A DNA stretch of 64,000 nt from a virus: the IMG/VR virus record IMGVR_UViG_3300045988_126669, positions 33,217 to 97,216 of that record; one strand, 5' to 3'. Positions 2,945 through 37,894 of this stretch are shown one piece after another (the stretch's first letter is position 1; every line of letters starts with the position of its first letter). Position numbers and translations under genes: made by a program. The notes under the pieces are model-generated. The model saw only the letters and a list, made by a program, of their open reading frames with translations, made no database searches and was not told the DNA's origin.

Positions 2945-2945
2945 T

Positions 2946-3122
2946 TTATCCCTCCTAATTATTCTCGTTATTCTTCTCCTCTTGAAGATCTACTAATCTA
3001 TTTGTAAAATCTCTTAATTGTTTTAAACACTCTCCCATAAGAATAGTATCTTCTCCTTTAGTTGATACTAAAGAAAGAGTATTGTATAAAACTTTTAAAA
3101 AATTAATATCTTGTTCTTTCAT
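2946..3122 (-). CDS. small 58-aa protein (one in-frame TAG)
   Basis: ATG 3120-3122 with an AAAAGGAG RBS. The TAA stop overlaps the downstream ATG. Confidence 0.35.
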
Positions 3123-3144
3123 TTTCCTTTTTCTCCTTTTTAAT

Positions 3145-9500: not shown

Positions 9501-12500
9501 TTATAAGTAGCCGCAATTTTAGCCCAAGTTTCTTTGGAAGTATTTTGTCCATCTGCTAATGCTTTATCTAACGTCTTCTATGCATCTTCTAAGACTTTTG
9601 CTTCAGCACTAACACCTGTTGACCCTTTATAATCAACCTAGAATTTTCCTTCTAGTTTTCCCTTTCCATTTCCGCTAACTGCTTTTTTCATATTATTTAT
9701 AGCAGTATTAGCAAAATCTACAGAATTCTATGCTGCTGATTTAAAAGCTTTCTACCAATTTTCCGCTACAACTTTAGCATTATCTTTTGAAGAATTGGCA
9801 ACAATTTCTTGATTATCAGCCTATGTATCAGCTGTATCTTTACTATTTTTTGATTCTAATTCAGCTAAATTGCCAGAGATACTACTCCTAATAGCCGCAG
9901 ATTCCTAAGCACTTAAATTTTCAGCTGTGGCAAGAATTTCTGCCAAATGAGCTATATTTTTATAATTTACAGCTTTCGCTTCTAATAAAGTAGCCTAATT
10001 ATTTAACTATTCGACAGTAGCTTCAGCGTCAGCAGCAATTTCTGCTTTAGCTGCATCAAAGCAATCTTTAACAACACTTTCTTTTAATTTAGCTGATCCA
10101 TCTTTAGCTATTGTCATTCCTTCAATAATACCAGGAAAAACATTATTTAATTCTCGAATGTCATCAGCAGCAACACTATAATTAGGACCAATTTTAGAAG
10201 CCTAAGTATTCATATCTTTAATAGCATTTGTAATACTATTAAATTCTTGTTCTGCTTGGCCATGAACTTCAACATTTATACTATATTGCTAATCTGCTAA
10301 TTCATCCATAGAATCTTTAAATTTACTAAGATCAGCCTCTACAGTAACATTTACTCCTTCTTTTTTATTTATGATCTATAAATTTTGTCGAAGTTCTTTA
10401 AGAAGTTTATCTGAATCTTTATTTAAATCATTTAATTTGATTTCAGCCATTTTATCTTGGACTTGTTCTAAAGCTTCATAATAAGTTTGACTACCAGCAT
10501 TCCAAGTATGAGATAATTCTAAAGCCGCAGATTCTAATTCAGGATATTGTTTTTTTATTATTTCTAATTGCTATATCAAGTTAGAATAATCTTCATTAGA
10601 AGAAATATTTTCTTGAGTAACATCTCCACTCTATAATCCACTAATTAAATTAGAAGCGTTTTTTTCGCCCGTTTTGGCAGCGTCAACAATTCTCTAATTA
10701 TAATTATCAGGATTATAATTATTTAAACTATTTTCGAACCCTTCTAGCCAAGCTTCTCCATCATTTAATCCTAAAGATTCCATTTGTTCTTTAGTTAATC
10801 CTAAAGCTTCTGCAAATCCATCTGATCCAAGTTGTTTTAATTCTTCAACCTAATCAGGAGATAATTCAGATAAAATAGAAGTTAAATCTAAACCACTTTC
10901 GGCATTTGCTAGACTATCAAGAATTGCCTATGAAAAATTAGCACCAAATGTTTTATCAAAAAATTCTGTTTTCTTAAGAAGGTTTTCAATAGATTTATCA
11001 AATTCTTCTAAATTATAAGAATCATTATTCTCTAAAGAATTAAAAATTTCATCTGTTGCTCTTTTCCTAGCGATCTATTCTCGCATATAGGAATCATTTT
11101 CGTCTTCAAAAAGGACAGTTCCGTTTATATTCTTTAAAGTTCCTTTTCCAGTCCCACCACTATAAATATATTGACCTAACTCTTCTTCTGTTAATCCTAA
11201 AACTTCTCTTGCATAAGCTTTTGCTAATTCTTTATCATTATCTATATTTAAATCAGCATTATTATTATGAGCTGGCAAAGTTAAATTAGTAAAATCTTTA
11301 CCACTATTTTTAAGAATTTGACGCTAATATCCTGCTTCAGCAGCATAAATATAATCCTATAAAACAGTATTATCAGTAATCTTTTCAACTCGTCCAGAAT
11401 TATTTTGAATATTTTTACTTTTTAATATTTCATTACTATAATAATCAGTAGCTTTAGTAGCTTCAGTAATACTATCTGCTAAATTAAAGAAAGCATCACT
11501 ACTTTCCATAATTTTATCAATGCTCTCAGAATAAAACGTTGTATTTTCTTCTAATTTTTGTCTTAAAATTTCATCCTAACTCTTATGAGTTTTTATACTT
11601 TCTTTCTATGCTTCAATAGCAAATTGAGTAATTAATTCAATTTCACCATTTGTAATTGTGCCAGAATTTCCTTCTCGCTTTACTTTACCAATATTTCTAC
11701 TTAAATCAGTATTAGAAACTTCTTTTTTAGCAGATTCAACATCAATTTTAGCACTCTACTAAAGAACTTTTATATTATTTGCAGTATCATTAATTTTCTT
11801 TTGAGCTTCTTCAATAGCTCCTGTATCAAAAACAATTAAGCCATCTTTAATTTCATATTTATCCCATAATCTATAAGTTTCAATTAGTTCTTTAGCTTTC
11901 TCATTAGCTGATTCTAAAGAATCTGTATATTCCTATGTTTTTTTATCTAACCCATTAAGCGCTTCAACGGCTGTAGTATAATCATTAGCTTTATTTTTAA
12001 ATTCTTCAATTGATGAAGTTAATTCATTGTATTTTTCAGTTAATTTTTCTACTGTTTCACTAGCAGATTTTAAATTATTATCTGCTTTATTATATTCATC
12101 TATAGCAGATTTAATAATAAACACTAAAGCACCAATAGCGGCTCCAACCAAAGCTATTGACCCTAAAGATTTAGTAAATACCTTAATTGCTAATTTAAAA
12201 GCTGCTACTCCTTTTAAAGTAACTAAATTTAACGCTTCTTGTTCTAAGGCCTATCCATTTAATCCAACAGCAGTCATTAAAGAACTAGATAACATTCCCA
12301 TACTAGCAATTGAAGTTTTATTTAAAGAATTCATTAATAAGGGTAAGGCAATAGATAAAGCAGTTACGGTTGAAAGTAATTTATCTCCAATACCAATTTC
12401 ATCATTATTCCATGTATCTACAATTCCTTTTATAGAAGTTATTGCCATAGCAATACTGCTTAATCCCTAAGCAAAAGAAGCTACTCCTGCTTCTGCTGAA

Positions 12501-14884
12501 GGTAATACTCCACTAAAAGAATTTATAGTATTAATATATTCTTGATTAGCATCAGTGGCTCTATTAGTAGCCTATACATTATTAAGAATTTCAATAACCA
12601 TAGAAGAATATGAATCTTGTAATGAATTAATAGTATTTTCAATCTGTTCTTCAGTCATCTAAGTGCCTTCTAAAGTACTTCGTAACTATGAAAATGCTGA
12701 ATTGGCTTCATTTTCTGTAATAGTAATTAAACTATTTAACTAATTTCTAAATTCTTCAGTTGTATTATAAGTCCCATTAAGAATATTATCTAAACTATTA
12801 AAAGACATCCCTAACTAAGAAGTTTTATCACGAACCTATTGGAGTTTCTCTTTTAATTCATCTAAATTTTCGATATCTCTTGTAGCACTTTGGAAATCAT
12901 CTAAAACACTAGATAAAACAAAATTCTGTCTAGTAGAATTTACCTAAGATCTATAATCCTAAACATTCCCTTGTTTCATTCTAACTTGCGTTTCAAGCTA
13001 TCTTTCTAATTGACGAGTTATTTTTTGCTATTGTTCTAAATCTTGAGCACTCTTAATTGCTCGTTCTCCAAGTTTTTCATTAATATCTATAATAAATTTA
13101 GCCTAAGCCTATTCTTCTTCAGTCAACTGACTCCCCTAAGCAATTAATTCTCTTTGTTTCTAAATTAAAACATCTTGTAAATTAGCCTACTAAGTATAAA
13201 TATCACTACGAGTAGAATAATCAGGTCCCTAATCAACATTATCTGCCATAATAGATCTCAATTTATTATTAGCTTCTTGACGCATTTTTACAATTTCATT
13301 TATTCCATTTTTAGAAGAAATTTTAATATTATACATCATCCGTTGAATAGATTTTGTAATATCATTCCCGAATACTTTAAATCCAATAGTTCCAATAATA
13401 GATAGAACTCCAGGCAGTCCTCCTAATGCTTTAATTAGCTAGCTAATAACATTTAATAATTTTGCAAAAATATTAGTTAATTGAATAAAAGCCTTATCAT
13501 CCAATAGCTAATCATAAATAGTTTCCAAAGAAGCAGTAACTCTATTTTTAGCAGCTTCCCAAGATTCTGCGTAAACGTCAGCTTGCTCCTGAAGAGATCC
13601 ATCAGCATCCTAAGCTTTAGTAAGATTTTCTTTATAATAATCAAAATGATCCATCAAAGCAATTAATTGAGTATATTGACGAACACCCGCAACCTATTGT
13701 GCTAAAGCTACTTGCTAATCTTTATCAATACTCTGCCATTTATTACCCATTTCTTCGATAATATTATCCATATCTTTTAATTCACCATTAGAATCTTTAA
13801 TATTAATTCCAACTTTTTCAAGAGCCTATGAGTATTGATTTAATGTAGTACCATCTTCTAAAGTTTCACCAAGTTTTAAACCTTGAATACGAGCAAAGAT
13901 CGTTTTTAAAGCAGTACCTACAACATCTTCACTTTGACGAGTAGTAGCAGTAATAGTGGCTAAAGCTGCTGCTGCATTATCAAAACTTAAACCAATTGTA
14001 CTAGCAACCGCTGCAAATTTTTCAAGGCCACCAGCAATCTCATCAGAACTAGAAGCGGTATCCGCACCTAAACGCACCATAGCATCAGCATAATGCTCTA
14101 ATGACTAGCTTCCATCATAAAAATTATTCCAGACAGCAGTCATTTGATCTGAAACAATTTCAGCACTTTCACGAGCCACATTTGCCATTTTTATAGTGAT
14201 GTCAGTACGTTCTTTTACCTATTCATCATTTAAACCCTACTGATAATAAATTAAGGCTGCGTCAGTATATTTAGTAGTTGTAGTGCTTAACTCTTTAGCA
14301 GCTTTATTTGCCTAAATTGCAAATTTTGCCATCTAATCTGCATTTTGTCCAGTAACGATACGAATATTATTTAAAGATTCATTTAAATCCTAAGCATAAT
14401 AATAGGCAGACTATATTGCTCCCATAAAGCCATGTAAAATACTTGAAGATATTTGCCAACGAGCAGTATTAGCTAAAGTAGTTCCAAATTCTTTTAATAA
14501 GGCATTACTTCTTTTTAAGGGCAACTCTGCTGTAGAAATAGATTTTGCTAAATTAGCGAAAGCCTATTCGCCTTCTCTACCTAAAATTTGTAGCTAATCT
14601 CCATACTCGCTAATAGTTCTTCCACTTTTTTTTAATGATTGATTAAATTTTCCTAAATCAATAGTCCCCGCCTCTGTTCGGCAAGTGACTAACATCCCTT
14701 GTAATTCACTAACATAAGGCAAGGCTTTTTGAATTTCTTGCGATAAACTTAAATTACCATAGCTGTTAACATTTTTTGTTAAATTATTAAGCTATTCTTG
14801 TAAATCTTTCAACTATTGTTGAGCCTATTTAGCATCAGCAGTAAATTGTAAATTAACCTAATAACTATTTAATTGTTTAGCCAT
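6578..14884 (-). CDS. tail tape measure protein, ~2768 aa (TP901-family N-terminus ...IYYQQGLNDEQV...), TAG-recoded
   Basis: ATG 14882-14884 with an AAAGGAG RBS. Seven track ORFs are all in frame 1 (ends 7204, 8431, 9454, 11278, 12151, 12448, 14080). I walked the frame from 6941 down to the TAA at 6578 and met only TAG. It has coiled-coil and TM-like segments typical of tape-measure proteins. Confidence 0.75.
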
Positions 14885-15008
14885 AGGAATCTCCTTTCTC
14901 TCCAATTTTTACTTTGCAAAATAAAAATAAAACGGGGATAAGAGCAATTACACTCTTATCCCCATCACTCTATTATTTTTCAAAAAATAATATTATTAAC
15001 TAATTTAA

Positions 15009-15605: not shown

Positions 15606-16631
15606 TTATTTTTTATTAAATAATAATTCTTTAGTTAATTTTTCGCCATGATAACGGACTAATCCATCAATACTTTTCTAACTTAACTCTTTTACTTGAC
15701 TAATTCTTTTTTCTTTTTCTTCAATAGTAAAACGATTTATAAAATCAGCAAAACTCTATGGAGAGAACTATTTATCCTTTAAAATTTTTAACCACTTTAT
15801 TATAGTAGCATATTTCTATGGAGATCCGCCTTCACCTTTAACCGCATATTGAATCTTTCCCCCAGACACGTCTCCAATTAAAAATCCATTCATATTATCA
15901 GCATTAATTGCACCCATAGTAGGATCTAACATAAAATAATCAATATTTGTTTCAAGATCTGAATTAAATTTAATATTATTTATATAAAAAGATACAAATG
16001 CTTCATTAATAGGACCACGAGTAGACATTGTATATCCTTTCCACTAATTTTTATACCATAATATTCTCTTTTTATATTTATTATATCTTAATTCCACTTG
16101 CATTGCTGTATTCTATAGTCCTTTATTATCATCATCTGGCAAAGCATTTTTTAAATTTTCATAATGCTAATTCATATCATATTCTAATTTAGCATAATTA
16201 TAACCCTATACAGATGTTTTTTCAACTGCTTGAATATTTTTTATATCATTATCCATTAATCTAATCTCTCTTTGGCCTGTAATTGGATCAACATAAACAG
16301 CAGTAATTTTTATTTCTTGACTTAAAAACTCATTAATTAAATTCTATAAATTAAAAAATTCCTAATAGATTAATATTTTTTTCTATTCTAATAAATTTAA
16401 AGTCATAGTCATTGATTTATTTATTTTACTATTATGCTTTTTCTAAATATTATCAAAAATAGTAAAATGTTTAATTAATATTTCTGATGATTTTCTTATT
16501 TTTTCGTATAATTCTTTAAAATGTTCCTACTATAACTACTCTTTTACCATATCTTCAGTCCAATAAATAAAATCCTCAGCAATTTTCTAACTTTCTTGAC
16601 TATTATTACTATAATTATTTTTAATTACCAA
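15606..16631 (-). CDS. tail-associated protein (341 aa) with ~17 in-frame TAG codons (~5% of codons)
   Basis: TTG start after an AAAAGGAGG RBS. There is no TAA/TGA for 1 kb in 25%-GC DNA. It contains track ORF 15816..16028 and ends at TAA 15606. Confidence 0.5.
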
Positions 16632-16663
16632 ATTTAATCCTCCTTTTCCACATAACGAAAAAA

Positions 16664-16695
16664 TGGGAGAGAATATTTCTATTCTCTCCCATTAA
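16664..16695 (-). terminator. intrinsic terminator after the major-tail-protein unit
   Basis: aatgggagagaatagaaatattctctcccatttttt on the minus strand. Confidence 0.5.
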
Positions 16696-16878
16696 TTAAT
16701 CTTTTTTATCTAATTCAGATAAAATCTTACTTACCTCATCTTCCTATTGAAGAACTACTTCCTCAATAGGCTCGATAAGCTCTTTCTTTACAGCCTTTTC
16801 TACTTTTGGCTGCTTTTTAGTAGATTCTTTTTTAGGCTGTTTTGGTGGAGTATATTTTACTGGACCTTTTACAACCAT
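16696..16878 (-). CDS. small Lys/Glu-rich 60-aa protein
   Basis: GGAGG RBS then an ATG immediately after the major-tail-protein stop. The ORF also contains one in-frame TAG that is read through here; the first TAA/TGA stop is at ~16696. Confidence 0.4.
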
Positions 16879-16883
16879 ATTAA

Positions 16884-17867
16884 TTAGCCTCCAACAGCAA
16901 TGGTGCTGTTAGCAGCGGTCTTTCTACGAATATCGTTGTCAACAGTTTCGTCTTCTTCAATAATCTGAATAGCAGCCAAAACTTTCTTACTATGATCGAA
17001 ACGAGTATAGTCAGGGAATGCATCCATAGTAAAGGTGAAAGTGGAAGGATCACCAGAAGAAGCCATTGTAAAGTTAAAGTTGGACTGAATCTTACAGTTA
17101 GGAATAATAAATTCAGCAGGCATATCTACACCATCTTGATTACGGAATAAAGTAGAAGCTTCAAGATAATAGTTACCACCAAATTTATCAGCAGTAATTT
17201 CAATCTGCTTAGCACCAGATTCACGCTCAGTGTAATAATCAACCATTACAGAGTCGCATTTAGCATAATCATTCTCTAAATCGTTAGTAGTATAAGCCGC
17301 TCCAGTAGAACGAGCAAATCCCTTTACGGTAACACTAAAACCAGTGTCTCCAGTGGTAACTCCTTCATGTGCTAAATAAGGCTCAGAAATAATTTCGCCA
17401 TCCTTCATGAAGAAAACATAAACATAATCGTCATCTTTATGTTCATTATCAAGATAAGGGGCATAAGAGACAGGAATAATTAATCCATCAGTTTTAATGT
17501 CTTTTTCAGTATTAGCAGGGACAATGTCTTTAGTCTTATCAACAGTTTGAGTAATATGTTGCTTAATCTTATTGTTAGCAGAAGCCTCAACAAGACCAGC
17601 ACCGGAAAGAATCATGAAACCTTCAGGAGAAATAAGAGCATCTTCCATTGTGAAGGTAACAGTACGCTCGCCTTCCCATGCGACTAAGTTAGTATTACCA
17701 CGTCCACCTTGTGCGTATACGGTGGTAGCAGCGCCTTCCATACTGGAAGTCTTTAAAGTGTCGAAATAAATAACTGGCTCATTCTTATAAAATTGCTTAT
17801 TACCAATTTTTTGATTAGCCTTTGCCTTTAAAACGACATCGCAAATTTCGCGTACACCAAATTTCAT
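16884..17867 (-). CDS. putative major tail (tube) protein, 327 aa, no TAG, GC-richer codons
   Basis: Intact ORF with a GGAGGAAAAAAACCTATG start. Its position (after the head-tail genes, before chaperones and tape-measure) and its high-expression codon bias fit a major tail protein. Confidence 0.5.
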   Translation of the reverse strand: MKFGVREICDVVLKAKANQKIGNKQFYKNEPVIYFDTLKTSSMEGAATTVYAQGGRGNTNLVAWEGERTVTFTMEDALISPEGFMILSGAGLVEASANNKIKQHITQTVDKTKDIVPANTEKDIKTDGLIIPVSYAPYLDNEHKDDDYVYVFFMKDGEIISEPYLAHEGVTTGDTGFSVTVKGFARSTGAAYTTNDLENDYAKCDSVMVDYYTERESGAKQIEITADKFGGNYYLEASTLFRNQDGVDMPAEFIIPNCKIQSNFNFTMASSGDPSTFTFTMDAFPDYTRFDHSKKVLAAIQIIEEDETVDNDIRRKTAANSTIAVGG

Positions 17868-17891
17868 AGGTTTTTTTCCTCCTTAAAAAAT

Positions 17892-18617
17892 TTAATGGAT
17901 ATTTTTCATCCAGTTATCCGGCTTATTATCAGGCTTCGCGCCCGCTAATCTAGACCGGATATCAATATCCCAATTAATATAAAGTTGATATCTTTCAACA
18001 AGGTCATAGAGTTGGAACATTGTTAAATCCATTAAATCCTGTAAAGACATTGAATCAAGACCTATAGTAAGCATTGAAAGATACTAACTAAATATACTAG
18101 CATTAGCCGTGCCGTTTAATTCAGCGACACGTTGTCTACCTCGCATTAATTTATCGGCTATCTTTTTCGCGGCCGCATTTCCAGGATTAAATCCCATTTC
18201 TTGCGAAGCATTAGATTTAAAACAAAATATTTCTTTAATATATTCCTATAATATATTAAAATTGCTTTCATCAATCATTATTTGTGGGTCACCTTGTAAA
18301 ACAATTGACCTAGGGGTAAATAAAATATTTTGCTTTGGAAACAATAATGTAAGAACCTACATAGATGCTTGTTTTTTATCGGCCATCTCTTTTTCTTTCA
18401 TCATTGTCATAAATATCTAAAAATTATTTGTTTCTCTTAAAAGACTTTCGCCCGAATTCTCTATTATGTTTTTATCAATACATAAACACTAAATCCCCAA
18501 GAAAAGATCTTTTTCACCTATAAAAGAAATTTCTTTTATAGATGGCTAATGAATAGTGACTTCTAATTCAGGTATTGGTAAATCAATACCTGTCATTAAA
18601 CCAAGTCTAATATCCAT
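17892..18617 (-). CDS. head-tail joining/connector-like protein (241 aa, ~7 TAG)
   Basis: ATG overlaps the upstream stop as TAATG. Continuous in frame through TAGs to TAA at 17892. Confidence 0.45.
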
Positions 18618-19198
18618 TATTCTTCAGTTCTTTTTTTAAAATCTTCTATAAATCTTTCCTCGTCATTAGGATTTGGCATAGATTTTTTATCTTCTTCACC
18701 ATGAACTGCCTGATACATAAGACATAAACCAGCATATTCATCAGTTAAAATAATTTGATTTGCCCCAAGAAATTCTAACTTACCGATACCAGTTAAATGT
18801 GTTTTATCTATCATACTGTCAATTTCTGCAGCGATACGATAAGGGCGCAATTGATAATCTTTTAAATGCCATTGATCAAAATGACAAATAATATCGAATT
18901 CAATAATATTATCTCTAAACTCAGGATTTCCACTTTGTGTAAAATTATCAAAATTAATAATTACATAATTTAATACACTTCCATCAACATAAAGTTTAGG
19001 AATTAATTTAATATTTTTATTAAATAATTGAATCATTTGTTCGTCATTTAAATCTGGCTTATCAATAGCATCTTTTGTTGTATAATATAATAAGCGCTTT
19101 AATCTCTCATTTTTGCAGAGATGTTTTACAATAATTTCTAAATCTTTTTCAACAGAAAGAAAACTTGATTTAGGTAAATTTACACCATTAATTTTCAT
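18617..19198 (-). CDS. head-tail module protein (193 aa)
   Basis: Intact ORF with an AAGGAG RBS and a TAA stop. Confidence 0.55.
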   Translation of the reverse strand: MKINGVNLPKSSFLSVEKDLEIIVKHLCKNERLKRLLYYTTKDAIDKPDLNDEQMIQLFNKNIKLIPKLYVDGSVLNYVIINFDNFTQSGNPEFRDNIIEFDIICHFDQWHLKDYQLRPYRIAAEIDSMIDKTHLTGIGKLEFLGANQIILTDEYAGLCLMYQAVHGEEDKKSMPNPNDEERFIEDFKKRTEE

Positions 19199-19213
19199 AA
19201 CACCTTTTACTCC

Positions 19214-20278
19214 TTAAAACAATGATTGAACTACAATCGTTTTCTTATGGTCTCCATAACATAAATCGAACTATCCGCTATATCCAGAAGCCCAACTTAT
19301 TTCAACTGTTGGCTTTTTTGCTTCTTTAATAACTTTTAAAGAAACCGGCAACTTTTTATTATTTTTTATTTCCCATTCTAAAATAGCTTTACCATCAAAA
19401 TAATAAGTATAAGTTTTCTTTGGAAAAATAAATGTTTCCCCTATAATATCAGTTGTCGTAGGATTTGGATCAATTGGTTCTGTAATTAAAGAACCAACAG
19501 TCTTATCGTCTAAATTGTCTTCCTACTCATTAGTATAATATTCAGTCGCATTGATTTCTAAAATGCCAGGCATACTTATAGAATCTACAGCTTCAACACG
19601 CCAACAAATTAAATTGTCTCCCTCATCCTAACTATCTAAATAAAATTTAGTATAACGTTTAAAATATCTTAATGTATCTTTATTTTTTGGCATTAAAATA
19701 TTTAATGAATAATTAGGATTATCTATACTAATTTCATGTTTCTGAATATAATTAATTTTCGTTTCTACAGGACCGCGAATTGCTGCATAAGTAGATTTCT
19801 TCTCTCCCTCATCTACCCAATTTATTTTATAAGAGCATTTTCTAATATCTCCTCTAAAATAAGCTAATTCAGTCAAATCCTAAAGATAACAAATCCAATA
19901 GGTATTAGTTCCACACCATTCAAAAATATCTCCCGGTTTAAACTAATATTTATTTCCAACAGACAAAATCTTGTCATCATAATCCTATTTTAATTTATTA
20001 GGATTAATCAAACACCTAATAGGTTTTTTATATTCCGCATCCTATTTAATGATTTCCGCGGCTTGGTATGAATTCCATACTGCTCTATCTAAACTTCTGC
20101 GCTTAGATAAAATCATACGCTCTTGTTGGCGGTTTCCGCCCATCTGACCGAGCCGAACCGCTGTATAATTAACGCCTTCAACAGGGCTACCTTCAAAGGG
20201 TGGTTTATCATAAATTCCTAAGCGACCTTGTTGTAATCTAAAAGGTTGCTTACTACTATAATCAAACCCTGATGCCAT
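19214..20278 (-). CDS. head-tail module protein (354 aa, several TAG)
   Basis: ATG 20276-20278 with an AGGAG RBS. It includes ORF 19628..19876 in the same frame. TAA at 19214. Confidence 0.45.
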
Positions 20279-20559
20279 AATTTATCTCCTATAAAAGACT
20301 AATCGTTTCAAATACAGTCTTACGATAAAAATTAAAATCAGTATCTTGATTCTACAATCCCTCAAGTTTGTTTAATAACTATAAATAAAGGGGTTCAGCG
20401 CTAAAAATCACACTAAACCCCACAATTTCATTTATAACAGTTTCTAGCTATTTATGCCAATCTTCATTATTTTCGCGCATTGGAATTAATTTCCATAATT
20501 GATTGGTTAAGCGCAAACAATTTACTTTTATACTCTCTATTGGAATATCAAAATTATAT

Positions 20560-21132
20560 TTAGTAATCATATCGACTTTTAAACACATCCCAATTAGATT
20601 CATATTCACCTTTATTATTTAAACGTCTACGTTTATATAAACGCTACATATGGTGAGATTGTCTTTGGCATTCACCTAATAAGTTTAATAACTTTGATAA
20701 ATGATTTGCCTAAGAAGTAAATTTAAAATCAGAGCCACTGTATTTCATTCGAGTGTTCTCAATTGAAGTGACTTGTCTTTGCGTCCAACCACACATCATT
20801 AAAATAGCTAAAATATTAATTTCTTCTTCAGTTAGATCACAATTAAAGCTGGATCTATCAACTAAAACTTGAGGTTCTTCACCCGGTTCTGGAAGTTCTC
20901 CCCATACTGTTCCTACAATAAAATCATCTGGCATAGCATCAGATTCGTTAATAGTAGCAACATCTAAATTATAATCTAAAAGATTTTTTCGCGGAAATTC
21001 AAATCCAGGAATAGCATCTATTATAAGATTCTATAAATCTCTTAGAGTATCTTCAGGAGTCAATTCCAGATACATATCATCAGTAACCTTGTTTAGAAAG
21101 CGATTATAAACAGTTGAGAATAATGTTCCCAC
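20560..21132 (-). CDS. head completion-like protein (190 aa, several TAG)
   Basis: GTG start after an AGGAGGG RBS. Contains ORF 20710..20934. TAA stop. Confidence 0.4.
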
Positions 21133-21151
21133 TTAATCGCCCTCCTATAAA

Positions 21152-21745
21152 TTATTTCTTGGAGGAAGTTTCCTCGGTTTTATTAATTACTTTATATCCA
21201 GAACCGCTTGTACGACGACCTTGAGTAATAGGTTCTTCTCTTACTACACGGCGCTTAGCAGCGGGTTCTTTCTCTACAATAGTATCTTCTTCTTTACTAG
21301 CGATATCATTAGCAATAGCTTTATCAACATCAAACCCAGTTTTTTCCTTCAAAGCTCTACGCTTATTAATATCAGTAATAGGAAGGCTAACAGATAGATT
21401 CTTGATTAAGTCAATAATTCCAATAGGAGCAAAATCAAGAGCATCTAAGAAAGCATCTAATGAGCCATTAAGAATTAAATCAGCAACTTGTTGCTCTGAC
21501 ATATTATATTCAGGTTCAGTATGAACATTAAGAGTATGAGTTACTTCTGGCTCTAAAATTTGTAAAAAATTAGCAATTAATTCGCGGCCGCCCGCCTGAT
21601 AAGTTAACTTCTCTAGCTCACCAAATGGAATGCGCTTAGTTTCACCGGGCGCAAATTCACGACGCAAATTAGTATCAGGAATAGTATAAACAACTACACT
21701 AGTGCTTCTATTTTTTACATTATAAATATCTTCATTATTAATCAT
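21152..21745 (-). CDS. hypothetical head protein (197 aa)
   Basis: Intact ORF with an AAAGGAG RBS and a TAA stop. Confidence 0.5.
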   Translation of the reverse strand: MINNEDIYNVKNRSTSVVVYTIPDTNLRREFAPGETKRIPFGELEKLTYQAGGRELIANFLQILEPEVTHTLNVHTEPEYNMSEQQVADLILNGSLDAFLDALDFAPIGIIDLIKNLSVSLPITDINKRRALKEKTGFDVDKAIANDIASKEEDTIVEKEPAAKRRVVREEPITQGRRTSGSGYKVINKTEETSSKK

Positions 21746-21831
21746 TATTCAATTTCTCCTTTTACTCATAAAACAAAAATATGGGGAGAGGGAGTTTAAT
21801 CCCTTCTCCCCATGGAATAATTTATATTAAA

Positions 21832-22938
21832 TTAGACAGTACCGTCAAGGCGACCATCATAAGTGATAACCTTACCAGTAACTCCATCATAATTCCAAGT
21901 ATACATCTGACCGAGAAGTGAAGTATCAACATAAGCACAGATGTTATTGGCAAGCATACAAACTACGCCAACCTTCTTGTAAACCTGAATCTCACGAGAA
22001 CGATCATAATTGTTGAATTCATCAACAATAGTGCCACCTTCGAAAGCAATCTTTACAGGCTTACCATCAGCGCCCGTAGGAATAACCCAAGCATAACCAG
22101 GATCAATAACCTTACGAGTATTGGTTTCATCTTCAAAGCCCTGCTCAAGAATAATAACCTTAGTACCCTTGTAAGTGGCAAGACGACCATTATTCCAAAG
22201 CTCGTTCTTCATAGCTTCAGTATATCTCCAAGCCTCATGAGGAATCATCTTAACAGCAAACTCATAAGTACAATAAATAGTAGGAGTACCATAAGCAGAA
22301 GCAATAGTGATCAAACGATCCATAGCAGCTTCATCAAATCCGGCAGCCGCAACGCGGTTAGCAGGAGGAAGCTGATTGATAGAAGATCTAAGAGCAGCAG
22401 CGACTTCTTTATAAATAAGTTCATCCATACCATCCATGATGATCTTGGTTACTTCACCAAAATCAACACGACCATCAAGGAATTCTTCGAAGCCAATCTG
22501 AGCAGCTCCGCCGATAGCGCTAGTGCGTACCTCGAAGGCTTCATTCTCTTTAGGTCCGAGCTTGAAGACTTCATAAATACCAGCAAGACCAACGCGAGTT
22601 ACAAACTGCTTAGCACGAGCACGATTATTAAGAGGACGGCGGAAAATAGGCTTATCACCCTGAGCGAAAGTCTTAACCTCAGCAAACTGATCATATTGCT
22701 GAATAACTTTCTTAGGAAGAACCTCATCAAGAGTCTGCTCAATCATAGAGAAAATAAGATTCTTATTTTCACGATAAAGAGCGTAAGTACCAGCCAACTC
22801 ATTCATTTCATTACGAAGAGTTTCATTTAAGGCTTCATAACTAAGATTTTTTCCCTCATAACTATAAGCAACAGGAGCAGAAGGATCAGCCTTAGCAACT
22901 TGCTTCATAAGAGCAATTAAATTATTTTTATCTAACAT
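21832..22938 (-). CDS. putative major capsid protein (HK97-fold-like, 368 aa, no TAG)
   Basis: Intact GC-richer ORF downstream of the scaffold-like gene. Size and position are typical of a major capsid protein. Confidence 0.55.
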   Translation of the reverse strand: MLDKNNLIALMKQVAKADPSAPVAYSYEGKNLSYEALNETLRNEMNELAGTYALYRENKNLIFSMIEQTLDEVLPKKVIQQYDQFAEVKTFAQGDKPIFRRPLNNRARAKQFVTRVGLAGIYEVFKLGPKENEAFEVRTSAIGGAAQIGFEEFLDGRVDFGEVTKIIMDGMDELIYKEVAAALRSSINQLPPANRVAAAGFDEAAMDRLITIASAYGTPTIYCTYEFAVKMIPHEAWRYTEAMKNELWNNGRLATYKGTKVIILEQGFEDETNTRKVIDPGYAWVIPTGADGKPVKIAFEGGTIVDEFNNYDRSREIQVYKKVGVVCMLANNICAYVDTSLLGQMYTWNYDGVTGKVITYDGRLDGTV

Positions 22939-22955: not shown

Positions 22956-23873
22956 TTACTTAATACGCATTACCTTGACGCCCTTTTGACCATCAGGCAT
23001 AGTATAAACTTTAACAACCTGCCAAGTCATTGAATCGTCGCCAGTTTTGCTAAGAATACCCTTTGTAGCAGCAGAAGGAGAAAGCTTATCTCCAACAGCA
23101 AGAGTCTCTTCATTAATCATATTAGTAGTATAAAGATCACCAATCATGGTCTTAAATACACGAGGAACCATAGAAGTGCCAGATTCCATGAACTTCTCAT
23201 GGTAGATACCCAACTTATGATATGGATCATTGGTCCAATTCATTTCATACATATCAGGAACATCAGTGAGAACCTTATCATAGTAATACTTTACAGGAAC
23301 ATTAGCAACCTGATGATTACTATCAAGAGTATATTCATTACCATCATAAGTAAATTTGCCGGTTTCATCGACATCATAAACACGACCAGCAATAGTAACA
23401 GTCTTTAAGCCCTGATCTGCGGAAACGGTCTGATTGATTAACTTATAAGTTTGACCCTTTTCATCAACGCCATTCCAGAAACGACCACCGTATTCAACCT
23501 CGGTATGCTCCCAATCATAAGGGCTATAAACACGAGCCTGATAGTCATCTTTAATCATAGCAAATTCGCAGTCCCACTGCTTACTGCCATCATAATGATC
23601 ACGATAAAGCTTAATCTCGTTATAAACGAGCATCCATTCACCTTCGCCAGTGAAGTTGACTTCGCCGATACCATTACCATTAGCAGCATAGTCATACTTT
23701 ACAAACTGACCGTTTTCAAGAATCTCAATGTCTTTATTGGCAGGAAGTTGAGCATAGATTTGAGCATTTCTTTGCGCGGAAAGGTGATTAGGCTCGACCT
23801 GACCGTAACCAAACTCAACATACTTTGCCTGAGACTTAATAGGAAGATTCTTATTCAAAAAGTCTTTAAACAT
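22956..23873 (-). CDS. capsid-associated/decoration-like protein (305 aa, no TAG)
   Basis: Intact ORF with a GGAGGACATACTAAATG start and high-expression codon usage. Confidence 0.5.
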   Translation of the reverse strand: MFKDFLNKNLPIKSQAKYVEFGYGQVEPNHLSAQRNAQIYAQLPANKDIEILENGQFVKYDYAANGNGIGEVNFTGEGEWMLVYNEIKLYRDHYDGSKQWDCEFAMIKDDYQARVYSPYDWEHTEVEYGGRFWNGVDEKGQTYKLINQTVSADQGLKTVTIAGRVYDVDETGKFTYDGNEYTLDSNHQVANVPVKYYYDKVLTDVPDMYEMNWTNDPYHKLGIYHEKFMESGTSMVPRVFKTMIGDLYTTNMINEETLAVGDKLSPSAATKGILSKTGDDSMTWQVVKVYTMPDGQKGVKVMRIK

Positions 23874-23890: not shown

Positions 23891-25474
23891 TTAATTTTTG
23901 TTGGCGGTAGCAAAAGCCGCCTTCACCCAAGCGGGCATATCATCATCTTCTGAACCATTATTGTTCAAATTAAAAGTAGTAGCACCATTGGGCTTATTAT
24001 TTTCGTCAAGGTCGAAACTCACCTTGTTGCGAACACAAATAACAGATAATTTAGCTTCAATATCATCAAGAGAATATTTATCAATATTTTCAACAACATC
24101 AGCTTTATCTTCATCAGAAAGCATATAGAATTTAGCAATCATATCTTCTTTATCTTTCTTCTCAGCAGCATTTTTAAATTCAGCAAGTGGAGCAATTTGC
24201 TCTTTCAAGCTATTATTTTCAGTTTCAAGAGCTGCAAATTTAGTCTGTAATTCATCATACTGAGCTTTAAGTTCAGTATATTCAACAACTTCTTCAAGAG
24301 AATAATTCTTCTTTTTCTTTTTATCATCATTCTCACTATTGTCGCCTTTATCAGACTTATTAGAGGGTTCCCCGTTATCAGGGTTCTTTTTATTATCATT
24401 GCCCTCTGATTTATTATCAGGGTTTTGGCCGTTAGATTTATTATTTTTGCCCTCTTCCTCAGCCTTTTTCTTTGAAGCATAATCAGTCTCAAAAGCTTCA
24501 ACATCAGCAAGAGCAAACTGAGGCTCTGTTGCCGGAGTATAAGACTTAGTTACTTCAGTTAAAGCGTCAGAAGGAACAAAGCCTTCTACATCGGTAAGAG
24601 AAAAGTCCATGCGATAATATTTTTGGTCTTGTCTATTTTGAAGAATAGCAAACTTTTGTCCCGCATCTTCATAAACGCCTTCAATGCGATAAATAGAACA
24701 ATAACTACTAGGCTCGCCAGGATATTTAGTCTCAACATAAGACCAGAGAGAATTCCACAAACTATCGCCAATTTCAACAGCATATTGTGTAAACACTTTG
24801 GGTCCTCCTTCTTTCATAAATTCTTTAAGTTCATTCATCATGGAGAACAAAGTGTTCTTAAAACCATCATCGAATGAAAAATTCACATTGATTTGGGAGC
24901 CTTCGAAACAAGGTTCATTTTCTTCTCCCAAAATACAAAGTTTAGAAATAATTGCCTTATTTATAATAAAAAACTAAGGCTTTCCATTACTATCTTTTGC
25001 CCACGTGGCATTTAATGTGTTTTTATCAAACTCCATAGACTAATTATTGCCTTTATCAACTACACGTTTACATTCAGGATACTAACCAGTCCATAAATAA
25101 CCCTCAGTCATTAAATACTCACGTTCGGCAACACCATCATCCAAAAATTTCTAAAACCAAACTTTAGCTCCAAGATCAACAAAACCATAAGGGCGAGTAT
25201 TATCTCTCATTCTAAATTCGCCATTAGATAATTCAATTATCCTATTATGTTCTTCAAAATCTTCGGTATTTTCATTAAAAAAACCAACAATAGGACTACC
25301 AGGAAGGCTATTAGCCATCTCAATTGCTACGTCTTTAGTAATTACGCTTTTATTGCGATTAGGTTTATCATCTACATAGCAAACCTTAATTTGGCATTTA
25401 GAAATTAAAGGATTTACAGGAGTTATATTTATAAACTCACAAGGTGTATTTAATTTAATACTTGTATGTTTCAT
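23891..25474 (-). CDS. scaffolding-like protein (527 aa) with a K/N/D-rich low-complexity linker and coiled coil; TAG-recoded
   Basis: GGAGGATTTATG start at 25474. I walked the frame through TAGs into track ORF 23891..24931. Confidence 0.5.
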
Positions 25475-27146: not shown

Positions 27147-27503
27147 TTAATAACCTGCTAATTTCATTATATAATCATAAGAAATAAGGTTTTCGTCGGT
27201 ATATGGAATCTCTATTAATCTAAAATCATGTAAAGCGCAAAAACGTCTTTTTTGATTATCATTATATTGCTACTGGTATAAACCGCGCTTTCCACCAAAT
27301 TTAGAACTGGCTTCATAATGCTATTTTCCCTAATACTCAATAATGAAATCAATTTTTCCATCATCATCAAATATAACAAAATCAAAACGAAGCGGACGCC
27401 CGCTTGGGCTTTTTAAATCTGGAAAGATGTATTCCATTTTAAAAGGTAGTCCTGCTTCTTCTAAGATTTCTTCAATTTTAATTTCTCCTCTTGAAGCACG
27501 CAC
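27147..27503 (-). CDS. free-standing PD-(D/E)xK (DUF559/Vsr-like) endonuclease-like protein, 118 aa, between terminase and portal
   Basis: GTG after a GGAGGG RBS. The motif RFDFVIFDDDGKIDFIIEYQGKQHY parallels the C-terminal domain of the gene at 57055. Has 3 in-frame TAGs. Confidence 0.45.
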
Positions 27504-27515: not shown

Positions 27516-29255
27516 TTAATTTAAAAAGCACCAATCAGACGCATTAAACTTTTTACGTTTTTTCTTTTTATCTTCTTCAAGTTTTAAATAATATAATCCA
27601 TATTCAAAAGCCGAAAATTTATCTTTACGAATTCCGCGATTTGCCTATTTTAAAATAATATTAATACCTTCATTTTCTTCGCGTAAATTCATCATTTCTT
27701 CTTTTAATATGGAGGTTAAAGTAAATGGTTTTAAATAATCTGCCCTTTGTTCAGGAGTCATTTTTGAACCTTTTTGAGTAGCTAATAATTTTTCTTTAGC
27801 TGTTCTCTCATCTATTAAGAATTTTACCTTACCCGCTTGTAATTGAGTCTGAGCATTAGCATGACATTCAGTATTTATTGGAGCATTTGCTTTAATAACA
27901 TACATAGCATCAAATTGAGTATTTGGTGTGCGATATTTTTTATAATATCCATCATCATCATTCTCAACACCAAAATCAGGTAAAAATTCACCATCTTCAT
28001 CATTTTGAGATTTTACCATATAATCCAAAAGTCCAATACCTAAACCATTACCATCTATAACCAAAGTTTTAGCTTTATATTTATAAAATAATTTCTTTAA
28101 TTTAATAGCCTGATCTTCAAAATGATCATCTGACATAGTATACATATTTACTAAAGACTTAATAGCTGGACCTTGGGCTTGTGGTGTTACTTTAAATACA
28201 CAAACTACTGAATCGCATCCTTTACGACCTACATCTACAGAAAGTACATAATAAGCTTGTGCGCCCGCCCGTCCAGAAGCTTCATACTCAGGCTATAATA
28301 ATTTTCTATTTCTATCAAAATGCTCTCCATTAAAGAAAGCATCCTCAACAGTTCCTGACCACTTAGATTCATATTCACGTTCGAATGAAGCTTCATTATA
28401 AGTTCCTTCATTCTTTTGGTCAGTAATAAATGTTTTACTTTGTAATCCTACTGCAACCGGAGTTCGCCATGTTCCGCCCAATACCATACAACGATCAGGC
28501 TAAGTTACCATACGAACCAAGAAACCAATAAGTCTATCATAAGGGAATGTGCCCTTATAACCAGCAGTAGTAATATAGATTTGTGATTTGTTTAATGGCT
28601 CTTGTTCATTGGTAGTGCCATCTTTAGCTCTACGAGAAATTGCCATAACAGGAATAATAACTTCACGAAGAATAGCATCATCAATACCGACACATTCTTC
28701 CATTAGTCCACCATGACGACGCTGACCACGAGTGCTTTCACGGGCTGCGAGGTTATCCAAAACTGAACCATTTTTAAACACATATCTAACTTTATCTTTT
28801 CCTTCAAGAGTTTTTCCTCGACTCCAATCAATTTCTCGATTAAAGCTTGGAATAAGTTCACATATTTCTTGAACTTTATCATGAAGAATACTAGCACCTT
28901 GCTCTTTACCTCCAGAAGTAACGAACAAATGTGCGCCAGGATATAAAATACATCTAATCATCAATGCCATAACAGACAAAAATGATTTAGAATAAGCACG
29001 AGGAAAAACCGCATAAACATACTAATAACGCATAACAGAACGGAGAAATACTCTCTAATAAAAATAAAAATTAAATTCTCCATCTTTTATTTCAGTGCGT
29101 CTTCCTCGCACCATAAAATCTACAAATAAATCAGGATATTCTCTCCAAAAGGCAACGTATTTGCGGATAGTGGGCATTACCGCTTCTACTCGCTCCGGTG
29201 ATAAACCTATTTTTCTACGGCTATCACTTAACTACAGTAAATCTTGTAATGCCAT
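27516..29255 (-). CDS. terL: terminase large subunit (579 aa), TAG-recoded
   Basis: The N-terminus reads MALQDLLQLSDSRRKIGLSPERVEAVMPTIRKYVAFWREYPDLFVDFMVRGRRTEIKDGEFNFYFYQRVFLRS... with TAG=Q. Has an ATPase core and a C-terminal nuclease motif LVIDGNGLGIGLLD. Fragments 28500..28979, 28293..28487 and 27645..28145 are joined by verified in-frame TAGs. TAA at 27516. Confidence 0.85.
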
Positions 29256-31547: not shown

Positions 31548-31571
31548 TTTTTACCTCCAGTCTATATTTAT

Positions 31572-31600
31572 ATTATACTCGAAAAAATTTTTTTTGTCAA
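31572..31600 (-). promoter_or_regulatory. sigma70-like promoter (TTGACA-17-TATAAT) for the leftward late operon
   Basis: Reverse complement of tgtcaa (31595-31600) and attata (31572-31577), ~25 nt upstream of a GGAGG RBS and ATG. Confidence 0.4.
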
Positions 31601-37891: not shown

Positions 37892-37894
37892 AAA

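What the first reader, a model, noticed from the sequence alone, without database searches (positions are those of the whole stretch)
15606..22938. TAG load is anti-correlated with expected expression level
The putative capsid (21832-22938), the 305-aa capsid-associated protein and the major tail protein (16884-17867) contain zero TAGs and are GC-richer. The adjacent 341-aa gene (15606-16631) has ~17 TAGs (~5% of codons). The terminase, portal and tape-measure genes carry several to dozens. This suggests suppression is limiting or costly, and that TAG is tolerated mainly in low-copy proteins. It is a possible dosage/timing control.
Basis: seen in the sequence. Interest (0 to 1): 0.5.

Follow-up and report, generated by a model that had tools for sequence, protein, structure and literature searches.

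The report
Amber codons avoided in abundant virion proteins
In this gut phage, which reads the stop codon TAG as glutamine, the proteins needed in the most copies (capsid, tail tube and two neighbours) carry almost no TAG while low-copy proteins are full of it; relatives show the same pattern, so it looks like ordinary codon-usage selection applied to a reassigned stop codon.

Summary
After gene calling with TAG as sense, the 22 minus-strand late genes (window 53-31547) hold 194 TAG in 10,279 codons. The major capsid gene (21832-22938), its two flanking genes (22956-23873, 21152-21745) and the major tail gene (16884-17867) hold none: 0 of 40 Gln codons against 192 of 474 elsewhere (Fisher P=4e-9). 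The 341-aa gene has 16 TAG, the tape measure 84.

TAG means Gln, judged from standard-code orthologs. The same four genes are TAG-poor in all 24 dereplicated recoded lineages of this family and in published phAss-1. Protein conservation and Gln content do not explain this.

These genes also avoid the A-ending codons that match the phage tRNAs of a sister lineage (16% versus 43%). They prefer CAG even in standard-code relatives. Two of them end transcription units at conserved terminators.

Best reading: TAG accumulates as a near-neutral, AT-driven Gln codon in weakly expressed late genes and homing endonucleases, and is purged from high-copy genes because decoding by a phage suppressor tRNA is less efficient. 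Expression was inferred, not measured. Dosage or timing control is untested. The principle is known in ciliates and Blastocrithidia and has apparently not been described for phages.

The parts
21832..22938 (-). g15, major capsid protein. 0 TAG; GC 0.405; Gln encoded by 10 CAG and 2 CAA.
   Evidence: Bacillus phage major capsid proteins, E 1e-11 to 4e-13; phrog_4088; HK97 major capsid family NF042927, E 4e-4, below cut-off; A-index 0.108.
22956..23873 (-). g16, 305 aa, function unknown, directly upstream of the capsid gene. 0 TAG; codon bias equal to the capsid gene.
   Evidence: phrog_35301, unknown function; A-index 0.110; family TAG share of Gln codons 0.012. Structure model too poor to use.
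21152..21745 (-). g14, 197 aa, function unknown, directly downstream of the capsid gene. 0 TAG.
   Evidence: phrog_30998; family TAG share 0.087. Structure model too poor to use.
16884..17867 (-). g8, major tail (tail tube) protein. 0 TAG; GC 0.378.
   Evidence: phrog_2729, virion structural protein; hits annotated major tail or tail tube protein; family TAG share 0.022.
15606..16631 (-). g6, 341 aa, function unknown. 16 TAG (70% of its Gln codons); GC 0.234, the most AT-rich late gene.
   Evidence: No Pfam, PHROG or NCBIfam hit. About 100 unnamed homologs.
6578..14884 (-). g4, tape measure protein, 2768 aa. 84 TAG.
   Evidence: its position and length match the annotated tape measure of Enterococcus phage VRE9_1.
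25484..27133 (-). g18, portal protein. 11 TAG.
   Evidence: phrog_2739, E 3e-82.
27516..29255 (-). g20, large terminase. 6 TAG.
   Evidence: phrog_2, E 6e-20.
23891..25474 (-). g17, 527 aa with a coiled-coil, acidic C-terminal part, at the scaffold/protease position. 4 TAG, an intermediate load.
   Evidence: phrog_3313; syntenic gene annotated 'putative prohead protease' in phage PJN02; family TAG share 0.185.
30492..31547 (-). g22, first gene of the late block. PHROG annotation 'sigma factor'. 2 TAG.
   Evidence: phrog_5767, E 9e-55. No Pfam or NCBIfam support.
31572..31600 (-). Perfect TTGACA-17-TATAAT promoter-like site upstream of g22.
21769..21813 (-). Intrinsic-terminator-like hairpin plus U-run directly after the capsid gene.
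   Evidence: dG -28.6 kcal/mol, z -3.4. A hairpin plus T-run is present after the capsid gene in 18 of 28 lineages.
16662..16693 (-). Terminator-like hairpin after g8/g7 and before g6.
   Evidence: A hairpin plus T-run lies within 110 nt of the g8 stop in 14 of 20 lineages.
14931..14966 (-). Terminator-like hairpin (16 pairs) after g5 and before the tape measure gene.
27147..27503 (-). g19, homing endonuclease between the terminase and portal genes. 3 TAG.
   Evidence: phrog_9084, E 1e-26.
53..6462 (-). g1 (963 aa, 13 TAG), g2 (58 aa, 1 TAG) and g3 (1105 aa, 24 TAG): distal tail or fibre proteins.
   Evidence: weak minor tail hit for g3.
17892..21132 (-). g9 to g13, head-tail joining and minor structural genes. 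6, 0, 7, 4 and 3 TAG.
29255..30442 (-). g21, 395 aa, unknown function, at the small-terminase position. 8 TAG.
   Evidence: (phrog_3314).

Best explanation
The window holds the late structural module of a large siphovirus of a Firmicutes-type host that decodes TAG as glutamine.

Shown:
- TAG is a genuine Gln codon in this phage.
- It makes up 20-70% of Gln codons in low-copy late genes and in homing endonucleases.
- It is almost absent from the major capsid protein, the major tail protein and two genes flanking the capsid gene. This holds across 24 recoded lineages.
- The same four genes avoid A-ending codons in general and keep CAG.

Inferred mechanism:
- Under strong AT mutation pressure, CAG mutates to CAA or to TAG. 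TAG can leave only through CAG, because TAA is lethal, so TAG is a mutational sink.
- Where translational selection is weak, TAG drifts up to about the level of CAA.
- TAG, like the A-ending codons, is read by phage-encoded tRNAs; a sister lineage carries one tRNA(CUA). At TAG that tRNA also competes with host release factor 1.
- Each TAG therefore costs a small amount of yield or speed. The tape measure gene with 84 TAG limits termination to roughly 1-3% per codon or less.
- That cost scales with the number of molecules made. Selection therefore purges TAG only from the proteins made in hundreds of copies per virion.
- Those genes also sit at the 3' ends of transcription units, in front of strong terminators.

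The result is expression-linked codon bias extended to a reassigned stop codon. Any dosage effect would be a by-product rather than a demonstrated control device.
For: Code:
- Long conserved genes appear only when TAG is read through.
- Late-gene stops are TAA or TGA only.
- Columns with TAG hold Gln in standard-code orthologs 29% of the time, against 4.1% background.
- TAG is used equally at invariant-Gln columns (0.33) and at variable columns (0.31-0.37).

Pattern in the window:
- 0 TAG of 40 Gln codons in the four genes against 192 of 474 elsewhere, P=4e-9.

Pattern in the family:
- The TAG share of Gln codons is 0.012-0.087 in g16, g15, g8 and g14, against 0.185-0.52 in 12 other gene families.
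- This is true in each of 24 lineages whose portal proteins are less than 90% identical, and in phAss-1.

Link to codon bias:
- TAG share against A-ending-codon index gives rho=0.75, p=8e-4.
- Pooled, A-ending codons matched by phage tRNAs are 0.16 in the four genes, 0.43 in other late genes and 0.16 in early genes.
- In standard-code relatives the same genes have the highest CAG share (0.43-0.71 against 0.34 or less). Three of them (g15, g8, g16) also have the lowest A-index there; g14 does not stand out.

Alternatives checked:
- Conservation does not explain it: rho=-0.26, not significant. g16, g8 and g14 are only 63-66% conserved.
- The capsid gene has the most CAG, so it has the most mutational opportunity to gain TAG.

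Release-factor competition:
- The base after in-frame TAG is C in 19% of cases, against 11-16% after CAA or CAG and 3% after true stops.

Suppressor:
- A tRNA(CUA) lies in a tRNA array in the sister lineage (capsid protein 90% identical).
- phAss-1 is reported to have three suppressor tRNA genes (PMC10607447). I saw one tRNA(CUA) in the part of its genome I scanned.

Transcription units:
- Terminators follow the capsid and major tail genes and are conserved. None follows the portal, large terminase or g11 genes.

Other TAG-bearing genes:
- TAG-bearing genes outside the module are homing endonucleases.

Precedent:
- Reassigned codons are avoided in highly expressed genes of Blastocrithidia and a ciliate.
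Against: - Expression level is only inferred, from known virion stoichiometry, codon bias and operon layout. No transcript or protein data exist.
- g14 and g16 have no assigned function, so calling them high-copy rests on codon bias, which is partly circular.
- No tRNA(CUA) was found in the window or in about 30 kb of flanking sequence of close relatives. The single-copy suppressor comes from a sister lineage and from partial loci.
- The correlation with the independent proxies from standard-code relatives is weaker: CAG share rho=-0.55, p=0.03; A-index rho=0.47, p=0.06, from only four lineages.
- TAG share still varies significantly among the ordinary genes (chi-square p=0.004). Drift alone does not explain that.
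- In crAss-like phages a tail tube family is reported as preferentially TAG-rich, so the rule is not universal.
Confidence: 0.68

Rival explanations
1. Adaptive regulation. TAG number is a selected device. It could act as a gate that blocks translation of late genes until the suppressor tRNA is made, possibly through the TAG-bearing sigma-like g22. It could also act as an attenuator that sets the ratio of virion proteins made from shared transcripts, with yield falling as (1-p)^n. TAG-free genes are the ones meant to be fully expressed.
For: - Early genes are TAG-free while late genes carry TAG, as in the model of Borges et al..
- g22, annotated 'sigma factor', sits behind a perfect host-type promoter and carries TAG in 41 of 42 recoded loci.
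- TAG counts order roughly inversely to copy number: tape measure 84, fibre proteins 13-24, portal 11, capsid 0.
- TAG share is heterogeneous among the ordinary genes.
Against: - TAG is spread evenly along genes with no 5' enrichment.
- The TAG share in ordinary genes is similar to the CAA share, as expected from mutation pressure alone.
- The four TAG-free genes show general codon bias that is also present in standard-code relatives, so no TAG-specific regulation is needed.
- The main late proteins escape the supposed gate.
- The sigma-factor call rests on one PHROG label.
Confidence: 0.2
2. Mosaicism. The TAG-free, GC-richer genes were recently acquired by recombination from standard-code relatives and have not yet accumulated TAG.
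For: - Standard-code and recoded members are interleaved in this family, with capsid proteins 76-87% identical to the window's.
- The TAG-free genes are compositionally distinct from their neighbours.
Against: - The same four genes are TAG-poor in all 24 recoded lineages and in phAss-1, whose capsid protein is only 50% identical.
- g8 is separated from g14-g16 by five TAG-bearing genes.
- Codon bias of these genes is stronger in recoded lineages than in standard-code ones (A-index 0.18-0.21 against 0.31-0.34). That is the opposite of what a recent import would show.
Confidence: 0.04
3. Artefact of protein constraint or composition. Conserved or Gln-poor proteins simply offer fewer sites where TAG can arise.
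For: - The capsid protein is the most conserved protein of the module (87% median identity).
- TAG share correlates weakly with Gln content (rho=0.50).
Against: - The analysis is normalised per Gln codon.
- g16, g8 and g14 are no more conserved than TAG-rich genes (63-66%). g19 is 85% conserved and has a TAG share of 0.40.
- In ordinary genes TAG sits at invariant Gln columns as often as at variable ones.
Confidence: 0.03

Closest known systems
phAss-1 and related human-gut code-15 phages (proposed genus Phassvirus; Int J Mol Sci 2023, PMC10607447; GenBank OQ749652)
   Same: - It is a large siphovirus-type genome that reads TAG as Gln, with TAG in the terminase, portal, tape measure and fibre genes.
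- It has a tRNA array that includes tRNA(CUA).
- Its structural module is syntenic with the window's.
- Its capsid, g16-like, g14-like and major tail homologs are also TAG-free and CAG-rich.
- A homolog of g16 belongs to isolate ctxMM9, which that paper lists in the wider group.
   Different: - Its capsid protein is only 50% identical, and megablast finds no nucleotide match.
- Its GC content is higher (0.40-0.51 in these genes).
- The paper records which ORFs contain TAG but does not analyse the depletion in abundant proteins.
Stop-codon recoding as a regulator of late and lysis genes (Borges et al., preprint 10.1101/2021.08.26.457843)
   Same: - Early genes use the standard code and structural genes carry the recoded stop.
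- Close standard-code relatives exist.
- The genome has low GC and TAA-dominated stops.
- A homing endonuclease is rich in the recoded codon.
   Different: - That work tested only which gene families are enriched for the recoded codon: lysis genes, a crAss-like tail tube family and an intron endonuclease.
- Here the striking signal is depletion in the major capsid and major tail genes, and it is tied to general codon bias. The tail tube result is the opposite of theirs.
Avoidance of reassigned stop codons in highly expressed genes of eukaryotes with variant codes (Blastocrithidia, PMC12153298; the ciliate Oligohymenophorea sp. PL0344, PMC10553269)
   Same: - The genomes are AT-rich.
- In-frame reassigned codons are distributed non-randomly and are rarer in highly expressed, GC-richer genes.
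- Those authors interpret this as a translational burden.
   Different: - Those are cellular genomes with measured expression and altered release factors.
- Here a virus works inside a standard-code host, the decoding tRNA is virus-encoded, and expression is only inferred.
Large Firmicutes siphoviruses (Enterococcus phages VRE9_1 and EF1/EF5; Bacillus phage PJN02; the Lactococcus 949 group)
   Same: They have homologous capsid proteins (25-40% identity) and major tail proteins (28-40% identity), and the same gene order from terminase to tape measure.
   Different: They use the standard code and show no TAG read-through.

Membership tests
TAG-to-Gln (genetic code 15) recoded phage | Conserved phage genes are intact only if in-frame TAG is read through | tested here: met
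   ORF coverage of window 1-31000 rises from 11.9 kb to 32.1 kb when TAG is read as sense. The portal, large terminase and tape measure genes are restored.
TAG-to-Gln (genetic code 15) recoded phage | TAG positions correspond to glutamine in homologs | tested here: met
   Gln occupies 29% of such columns in standard-code orthologs against 4.1% background, encoded by CAA (1825) and CAG (747). TAG is used at invariant Gln columns.
TAG-to-Gln (genetic code 15) recoded phage | TAG is not used as a terminator | tested here: met
   All 22 late genes end in TAA (20) or TGA (2). None of the 26 early and 15 middle ORFs checked contains a TAG, in-frame or as a stop. In standard-code relatives the portal gene ends in TAG.
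TAG-to-Gln (genetic code 15) recoded phage | A phage-encoded suppressor tRNA(CUA) or another code-change factor | tested here: inconclusive
   None was found in the window or in about 30 kb of flanks of close relatives. One tRNA(CUA) was found in a tRNA array of the sister lineage, whose capsid protein is 90% identical. Most of the genome, thought to be about 190 kb, was not seen.
Recoding as a late-gene timing gate (Borges model) | Early genes are free of the recoded codon | tested here: met
   0 TAG in 3016 early-gene codons and 0 in 1707 middle-gene codons.
Recoding as a late-gene timing gate (Borges model) | Late structural proteins cannot be made before the code switch because they carry in-frame stops | tested here: not met
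   The major capsid gene, the major tail gene, g14 and g16 carry no TAG in the window and almost none family-wide. TAG shows no 5' bias.
Recoding as a late-gene timing gate (Borges model) | Lysis genes are the most strongly recoded | not testable with these tools
   No lysis gene was identified inside the window.
Expression-linked avoidance of a reassigned stop codon (as in Blastocrithidia and ciliates) | The frequency of the reassigned codon falls as codon adaptation rises | tested here: met
   TAG share against A-ending-codon index gives rho=0.75, p=8e-4, over 16 gene families in 24 lineages. Against the CAG share of standard-code orthologs, rho=-0.55, p=0.03.
Expression-linked avoidance of a reassigned stop codon (as in Blastocrithidia and ciliates) | The frequency of the reassigned codon falls as measured protein or mRNA abundance rises | not testable with these tools
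   There are no expression data. Abundance is inferred from virion stoichiometry of siphoviruses (established knowledge) and from terminator placement.
Proposed genus Phassvirus (phAss-1) | Genus-level nucleotide similarity to phAss-1 (its three members share 80-86% identity) | tested here: not met
   Megablast finds no match, and the capsid proteins are 50% identical. The window's phage is a relative within the wider group, not a member of the genus.

The most novel reading that the evidence does not exclude
The number of TAG codons per gene is a selected, built-in translational rheostat. Read-through is slightly incomplete, so yield falls as (1-p)^n. This would set the ratio of virion proteins made from shared late transcripts: capsid and tail tube at full yield, portal at about 70-90%, tape measure at a few to 40%. 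TAG codons in the sigma-like g22 would delay the whole late programme until the phage suppressor tRNA accumulates. The reassigned stop codon would then act as both a dosage and a timing controller, not just a tolerated codon.
Probability: 0.15. Interest if true: 0.7.

Novelty: new member of a known kind. Interest (0 to 1): 0.42.

Why it matters
- It refines the current view of recoded phages. In this abundant gut phage family the most heavily made late proteins are not behind the stop-codon gate, so recoding cannot be what times their synthesis.
- It gives an internal estimate of how efficient suppression must be. An essential protein with 84 TAG limits termination to at most a few percent per codon.
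- It has practical value. Capsid and major tail genes of such phages stay intact under standard-code gene calling, so they remain usable as markers. TAG-poor, codon-biased genes of unknown function, such as g16 and g14, can be flagged as probable high-copy virion components.
- It extends to viruses a rule so far reported for ciliates and trypanosomatids.

Tried and rejected
- Function of g16 and g14. AlphaFold2 models built on 19-21 close homologs were unusable (mean pLDDT 48). A BFVD fold search returned only a sequence homolog. Profile searches of PDB sequences for g16, g14 and the capsid family found nothing. Pfam and NCBIfam gave nothing useful.
- Nucleotide similarity. Megablast of both halves of the window against GenBank phages found no match.
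- Suppressor tRNA. I walked out from both window ends through relatives and found no tRNA within about 30 kb. A generic tRNA(CUA) pattern scan found one only in the sister lineage. One scan was wasted on a wrong gap length.
- Other recodings. Reading TGA or TAA as sense does not restore long ORFs anywhere in the window. The apparent lack of long ORFs at 32-51 kb is a dense array of small standard-code genes, each with its own promoter.
- Rejected explanations. Protein conservation, Gln content and recent import from standard-code relatives do not account for the pattern.
- Literature. A search for virion proteomics of the related Enterococcus phages found nothing relevant.

Full report
**What the window is.** Bases 1-31,550 are 27-40% GC and encode one co-directional block of genes on the minus strand. 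The block becomes continuous only if TAG is read as sense: ORF coverage rises from 11.9 to 32.1 kb, and no other single-stop reassignment does this. All genes have strong AGGAGG-type ribosome-binding sites, which I used to fix the starts. The 22 genes run in this order:
- a sigma-like protein (g22) and g21;
- large terminase (g20);
- a homing endonuclease (g19);
- portal (g18);
- a scaffold/protease-position protein (g17);
- g16, the major capsid protein (g15) and g14;
- five small head-tail genes (g13 to g9);
- the major tail protein (g8), g7, g6 and g5;
- a 2768-aa tape measure (g4);
- distal tail proteins (g3 to g1).

The order matches large Firmicutes siphoviruses such as Enterococcus phage VRE9_1 and Bacillus phage PJN02. 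The closest published relative is phAss-1 (capsid protein 50% identical), which NCBI files under a "code 15 clade". The rest of the window (32-64 kb) is 35-45% GC and holds small plus-strand genes in the standard code.

**Checking the observation.** The late genes hold 194 in-frame TAG in 10,279 codons.
- TAG-free genes: g15 (21832-22938), g16 (22956-23873), g8 (16884-17867), g14 (21152-21745) and g10.
- g6 (15606-16631) has 16 TAG, 4.7% of its codons.
- Large terminase has 6, portal 11 and tape measure 84.
- The TAG-free genes are GC-richer: 0.35-0.405 against 0.234-0.338.
- They do contain TAG in the other two reading frames.
- Per glutamine codon, g8, g14, g15 and g16 have 0 TAG of 40, while the other late genes have 192 of 474. 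Fisher P is 4e-9.
- g10's zero rests on 7 Gln codons and does not hold in relatives.

**What TAG means.** A search with the capsid protein returned 80 related loci from IMG/VR. The nearest is 97% identical in DNA. By in-frame TAG density, 59 loci are recoded and 21 use the standard code. In the standard-code loci the portal gene actually ends in TAG. At alignment columns where a recoded genome has TAG, standard-code orthologs have Gln 29% of the time against a 4.1% background; the next residue, Glu, is enriched only 1.5-fold. In ordinary genes TAG is used at invariant-Gln columns as often (0.33) as at variable columns (0.31-0.37). TAG is therefore a faithful Gln codon, as in code 15.

**The pattern is a conserved property of the family.** I dereplicated the loci into 24 recoded and 4 standard-code lineages, using a cut-off of 90% portal protein identity. 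The TAG share of Gln codons is then:

| Gene family | TAG share of Gln codons |
|---|---|
| g16 | 0.012 |
| g15 (capsid) | 0.015 |
| g8 (major tail) | 0.022 |
| g14 | 0.087 |
| g17 | 0.185 |
| g5 | 0.192 |
| ten other families | 0.22-0.52 |

Every one of the 24 lineages shows the contrast. The four genes together have a share of 0.11 or less, and the others 0.20-0.47. phAss-1 shows it as well. Protein conservation does not explain this (rho=-0.26, not significant). g16, g8 and g14 are only 63-66% identical across the family, whereas the 85%-conserved g19 has a TAG share of 0.40. Recent import from standard-code relatives is excluded for three reasons:
- the pattern is universal in the family;
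- g8 is not adjacent to g14-g16;
- codon bias of these genes is stronger, not weaker, in recoded lineages.

**Link to expression.** No expression data exist, so I used three proxies.
- Known stoichiometry. In siphoviruses the major capsid and major tail proteins are made in hundreds of copies, whereas portal, connectors, tape measure and terminase are made in 3-12 copies or act catalytically. This is established knowledge, not a tool result.
- Codon bias. The four genes use a classic high-expression codon set: GCT 0.80, CCT 0.86, ACT 0.76, CGT 0.65, GGT 0.56, ATA 0.00. They avoid A-ending codons.
  - My index is the share of AAA, GGA, TTA, TCA, ACA, GTA, CCA, AGA and ATA within their amino-acid families.
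  - It is 0.108 for the capsid gene, 0.110 for g16, 0.185 for g8, 0.277 for g14, 0.297 for g17, 0.312 for g5 and 0.37-0.57 for the rest.
  - Across the family it correlates with TAG share: rho=0.75, p=8e-4.
  - In standard-code relatives the same four genes have the highest CAG share (0.43-0.71 against 0.34 or less), and three of them (g15, g8, g16) also have the lowest index. The bias is therefore not a consequence of recoding.
- Operon layout. A strong intrinsic terminator directly follows the capsid gene (21813-21769, dG -28.6, z -3.4). Another follows g8/g7 (16693-16662) and a third follows g5. A hairpin plus T-run lies within 110 nt of the capsid stop in 18 of 28 lineages and of the g8 stop in 14 of 20. 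It is never found after the portal, large terminase or g11 genes.

**Who decodes TAG.** The window has no tRNA. About 30 kb of flanks in close relatives has none either. The genome is probably about 190 kb, and most of it was out of reach. In the sister lineage, whose capsid protein is 90% identical, a tRNA array holds one tRNA(CUA). It also holds tRNAs with anticodons UUU, UCC, UAA, UGA, UGU, UAC, UGG, UCU and UAU, which read exactly the A-ending codons that ordinary late genes favour and the four genes avoid. phAss-1 is reported to carry three suppressor tRNA genes; I saw one tRNA(CUA) in the part of its genome I scanned. The four high-copy genes, like the early genes (index 0.16), thus look written for the host tRNA pool. 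Low-copy late genes look written for the phage tRNA set, suppressor included.

**Mechanism (inferred).**
- Under AT pressure CAG decays to CAA or TAG. TAG can revert only through CAG, because TAA is a stop. TAG is therefore a sink, and in ordinary genes it reaches about the level of CAA: TAG 0.41, CAA 0.54, CAG 0.05. That is what near-neutrality predicts.
- In the four genes the shares are CAG 0.57, CAA 0.42 and TAG 0. The capsid gene has the most CAG and so the greatest opportunity to gain TAG, yet it has none. That points to purifying selection.
- The cost per TAG must be small. With 84 TAG, tape measure yield would be 43% at 1% termination per codon, 8% at 3% and 1% at 5%.
- A weak context signal fits competition with release factor. 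C follows in-frame TAG in 19% of cases, CAA or CAG in 11-16% and true stops in 3%.
- TAG is spread evenly along genes, which argues against a 5' gate.

**What is known.** Borges et al. proposed recoding as a timing gate for late and lysis genes, and tested only for gene families enriched in the recoded codon. One of those is a crAss-like tail tube family, the reverse of what is seen here. The phAss-1 paper lists TAG-containing ORFs but does not discuss depletion. Cook et al. found the capsid gene under table 11 in 407 of 715 code-15 genomes, against 475 under table 15. That hints that capsid genes are often TAG-poor. Avoidance of reassigned stop codons in highly expressed genes is documented for Blastocrithidia and for a ciliate. 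The finding is therefore a well-supported phage instance of a known principle, in a relative of a known phage group. I found no paper stating it for phages.

**Verdict.** The expression-linked reading is supported by comparative evidence but not by measurement. The dosage or timing-control idea remains open, at roughly 15-20%. Interest is moderate.

Noticed in passing
window 32900-50700 (+): This 18-kb region at 42-45% GC looks ORF-poor. It is in fact a dense array of small standard-code genes (about 70-260 aa). Each sits behind its own near-consensus host-type promoter (cTTGACAa-17-TGnTATAAT, more than 25 copies) and a strong ribosome-binding site. GC3 is 0.4-0.73, against 0.12-0.27 in most late genes, which is an unusually sharp compositional split within one phage genome.
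   Followed up: partly
window about 36370-36520, 38670-38820, 40564-40760, 42865-43075, 45145-45380, 47687-47870, 49917-49990 (+): A repeat unit recurs 5-7 times, every 2.2-2.5 kb. It consists of a terminator hairpin, then a promoter (TATTGACAA-17-TGTGATAAAAT), then immediately a GC-rich hairpin with a T-run (for example CGGCGCGCGGACGACTGTGGCGCGCCGAGTTTTT), then a conserved TTTGTCAAGAGG box and a second promoter. It would produce an RNA of about 35 nt, or act as a promoter-terminator unit. No Rfam family matches at gathering score.
   Followed up: no
window 57055-57954 (+), 51832-52794 (-), 27147-27503 (-): The AT-rich, TAG-bearing genes outside or inserted within the structural block are homing endonucleases. 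They are an HNH type (phrog_374, E 3e-63, 4 TAG), a GIY-YIG-like type (phrog_1111, up to 8 TAG) and g19 (phrog_9084, 3 TAG). The first sits as a GC3 0.12 island inside a TAG-free middle-gene block.
   Followed up: partly
window 30492-31600 (-): The first gene of the late block, g22, matches a PHROG annotated 'sigma factor' (E 9e-55) and has a C-terminal zinc ribbon. It carries 2 TAG and is preceded by a perfect TTGACA-17-TATAAT site. If it really is a sigma factor, translation of a late-transcription factor would depend on the suppressor tRNA. Pfam and NCBIfam give no support.
   Followed up: partly
L001-L080 (IMG/VR relatives): Recoded (59) and standard-code (21) genomes are interleaved within one family. 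The capsid proteins of the standard-code genomes are 76-87% identical to the window's. The code has therefore changed more than once, or reverted. In standard-code members the portal gene ends in TAG.
   Followed up: partly
L276:3853-13337 and L279:108-7816 (sister lineage, capsid protein 90% identical): A tRNA array holds at least 14 genes, including one tRNA(CUA). That tRNA has a U1-U72 mismatch and G73, which resembles tRNA-Gln identity elements (judged from memory). The other tRNAs almost all read A-ending codons. No tRNA-Gln(UUG or CUG) was seen in these segments.
   Followed up: partly
window 45788-46168 and 48467-48844 (+): Two paralogous genes of about 125 aa are 77% identical in DNA. 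They have the highest GC3 in the window (0.72) and sit within a larger duplicated segment of about 2.5 kb (repeat families D7 and D13).
   Followed up: no
L090:12840-22875 (relative, beyond window position 1): The tail and fibre module continues for more than 10 kb past g1. One 556-aa ORF there (L090:18477-20144) has no TAG, while its neighbours have 3-9. It may be another high-copy component.
   Followed up: no
window 15606-16631 (-): g6, the most TAG-dense and most AT-rich gene (GC 0.234), lies just downstream of the terminator that follows the major tail gene. It evolves fast (45-55% identity to most homologs) and was recognisable in only 4 of 80 related loci by BLASTP. It has no family annotation.
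   Followed up: partly
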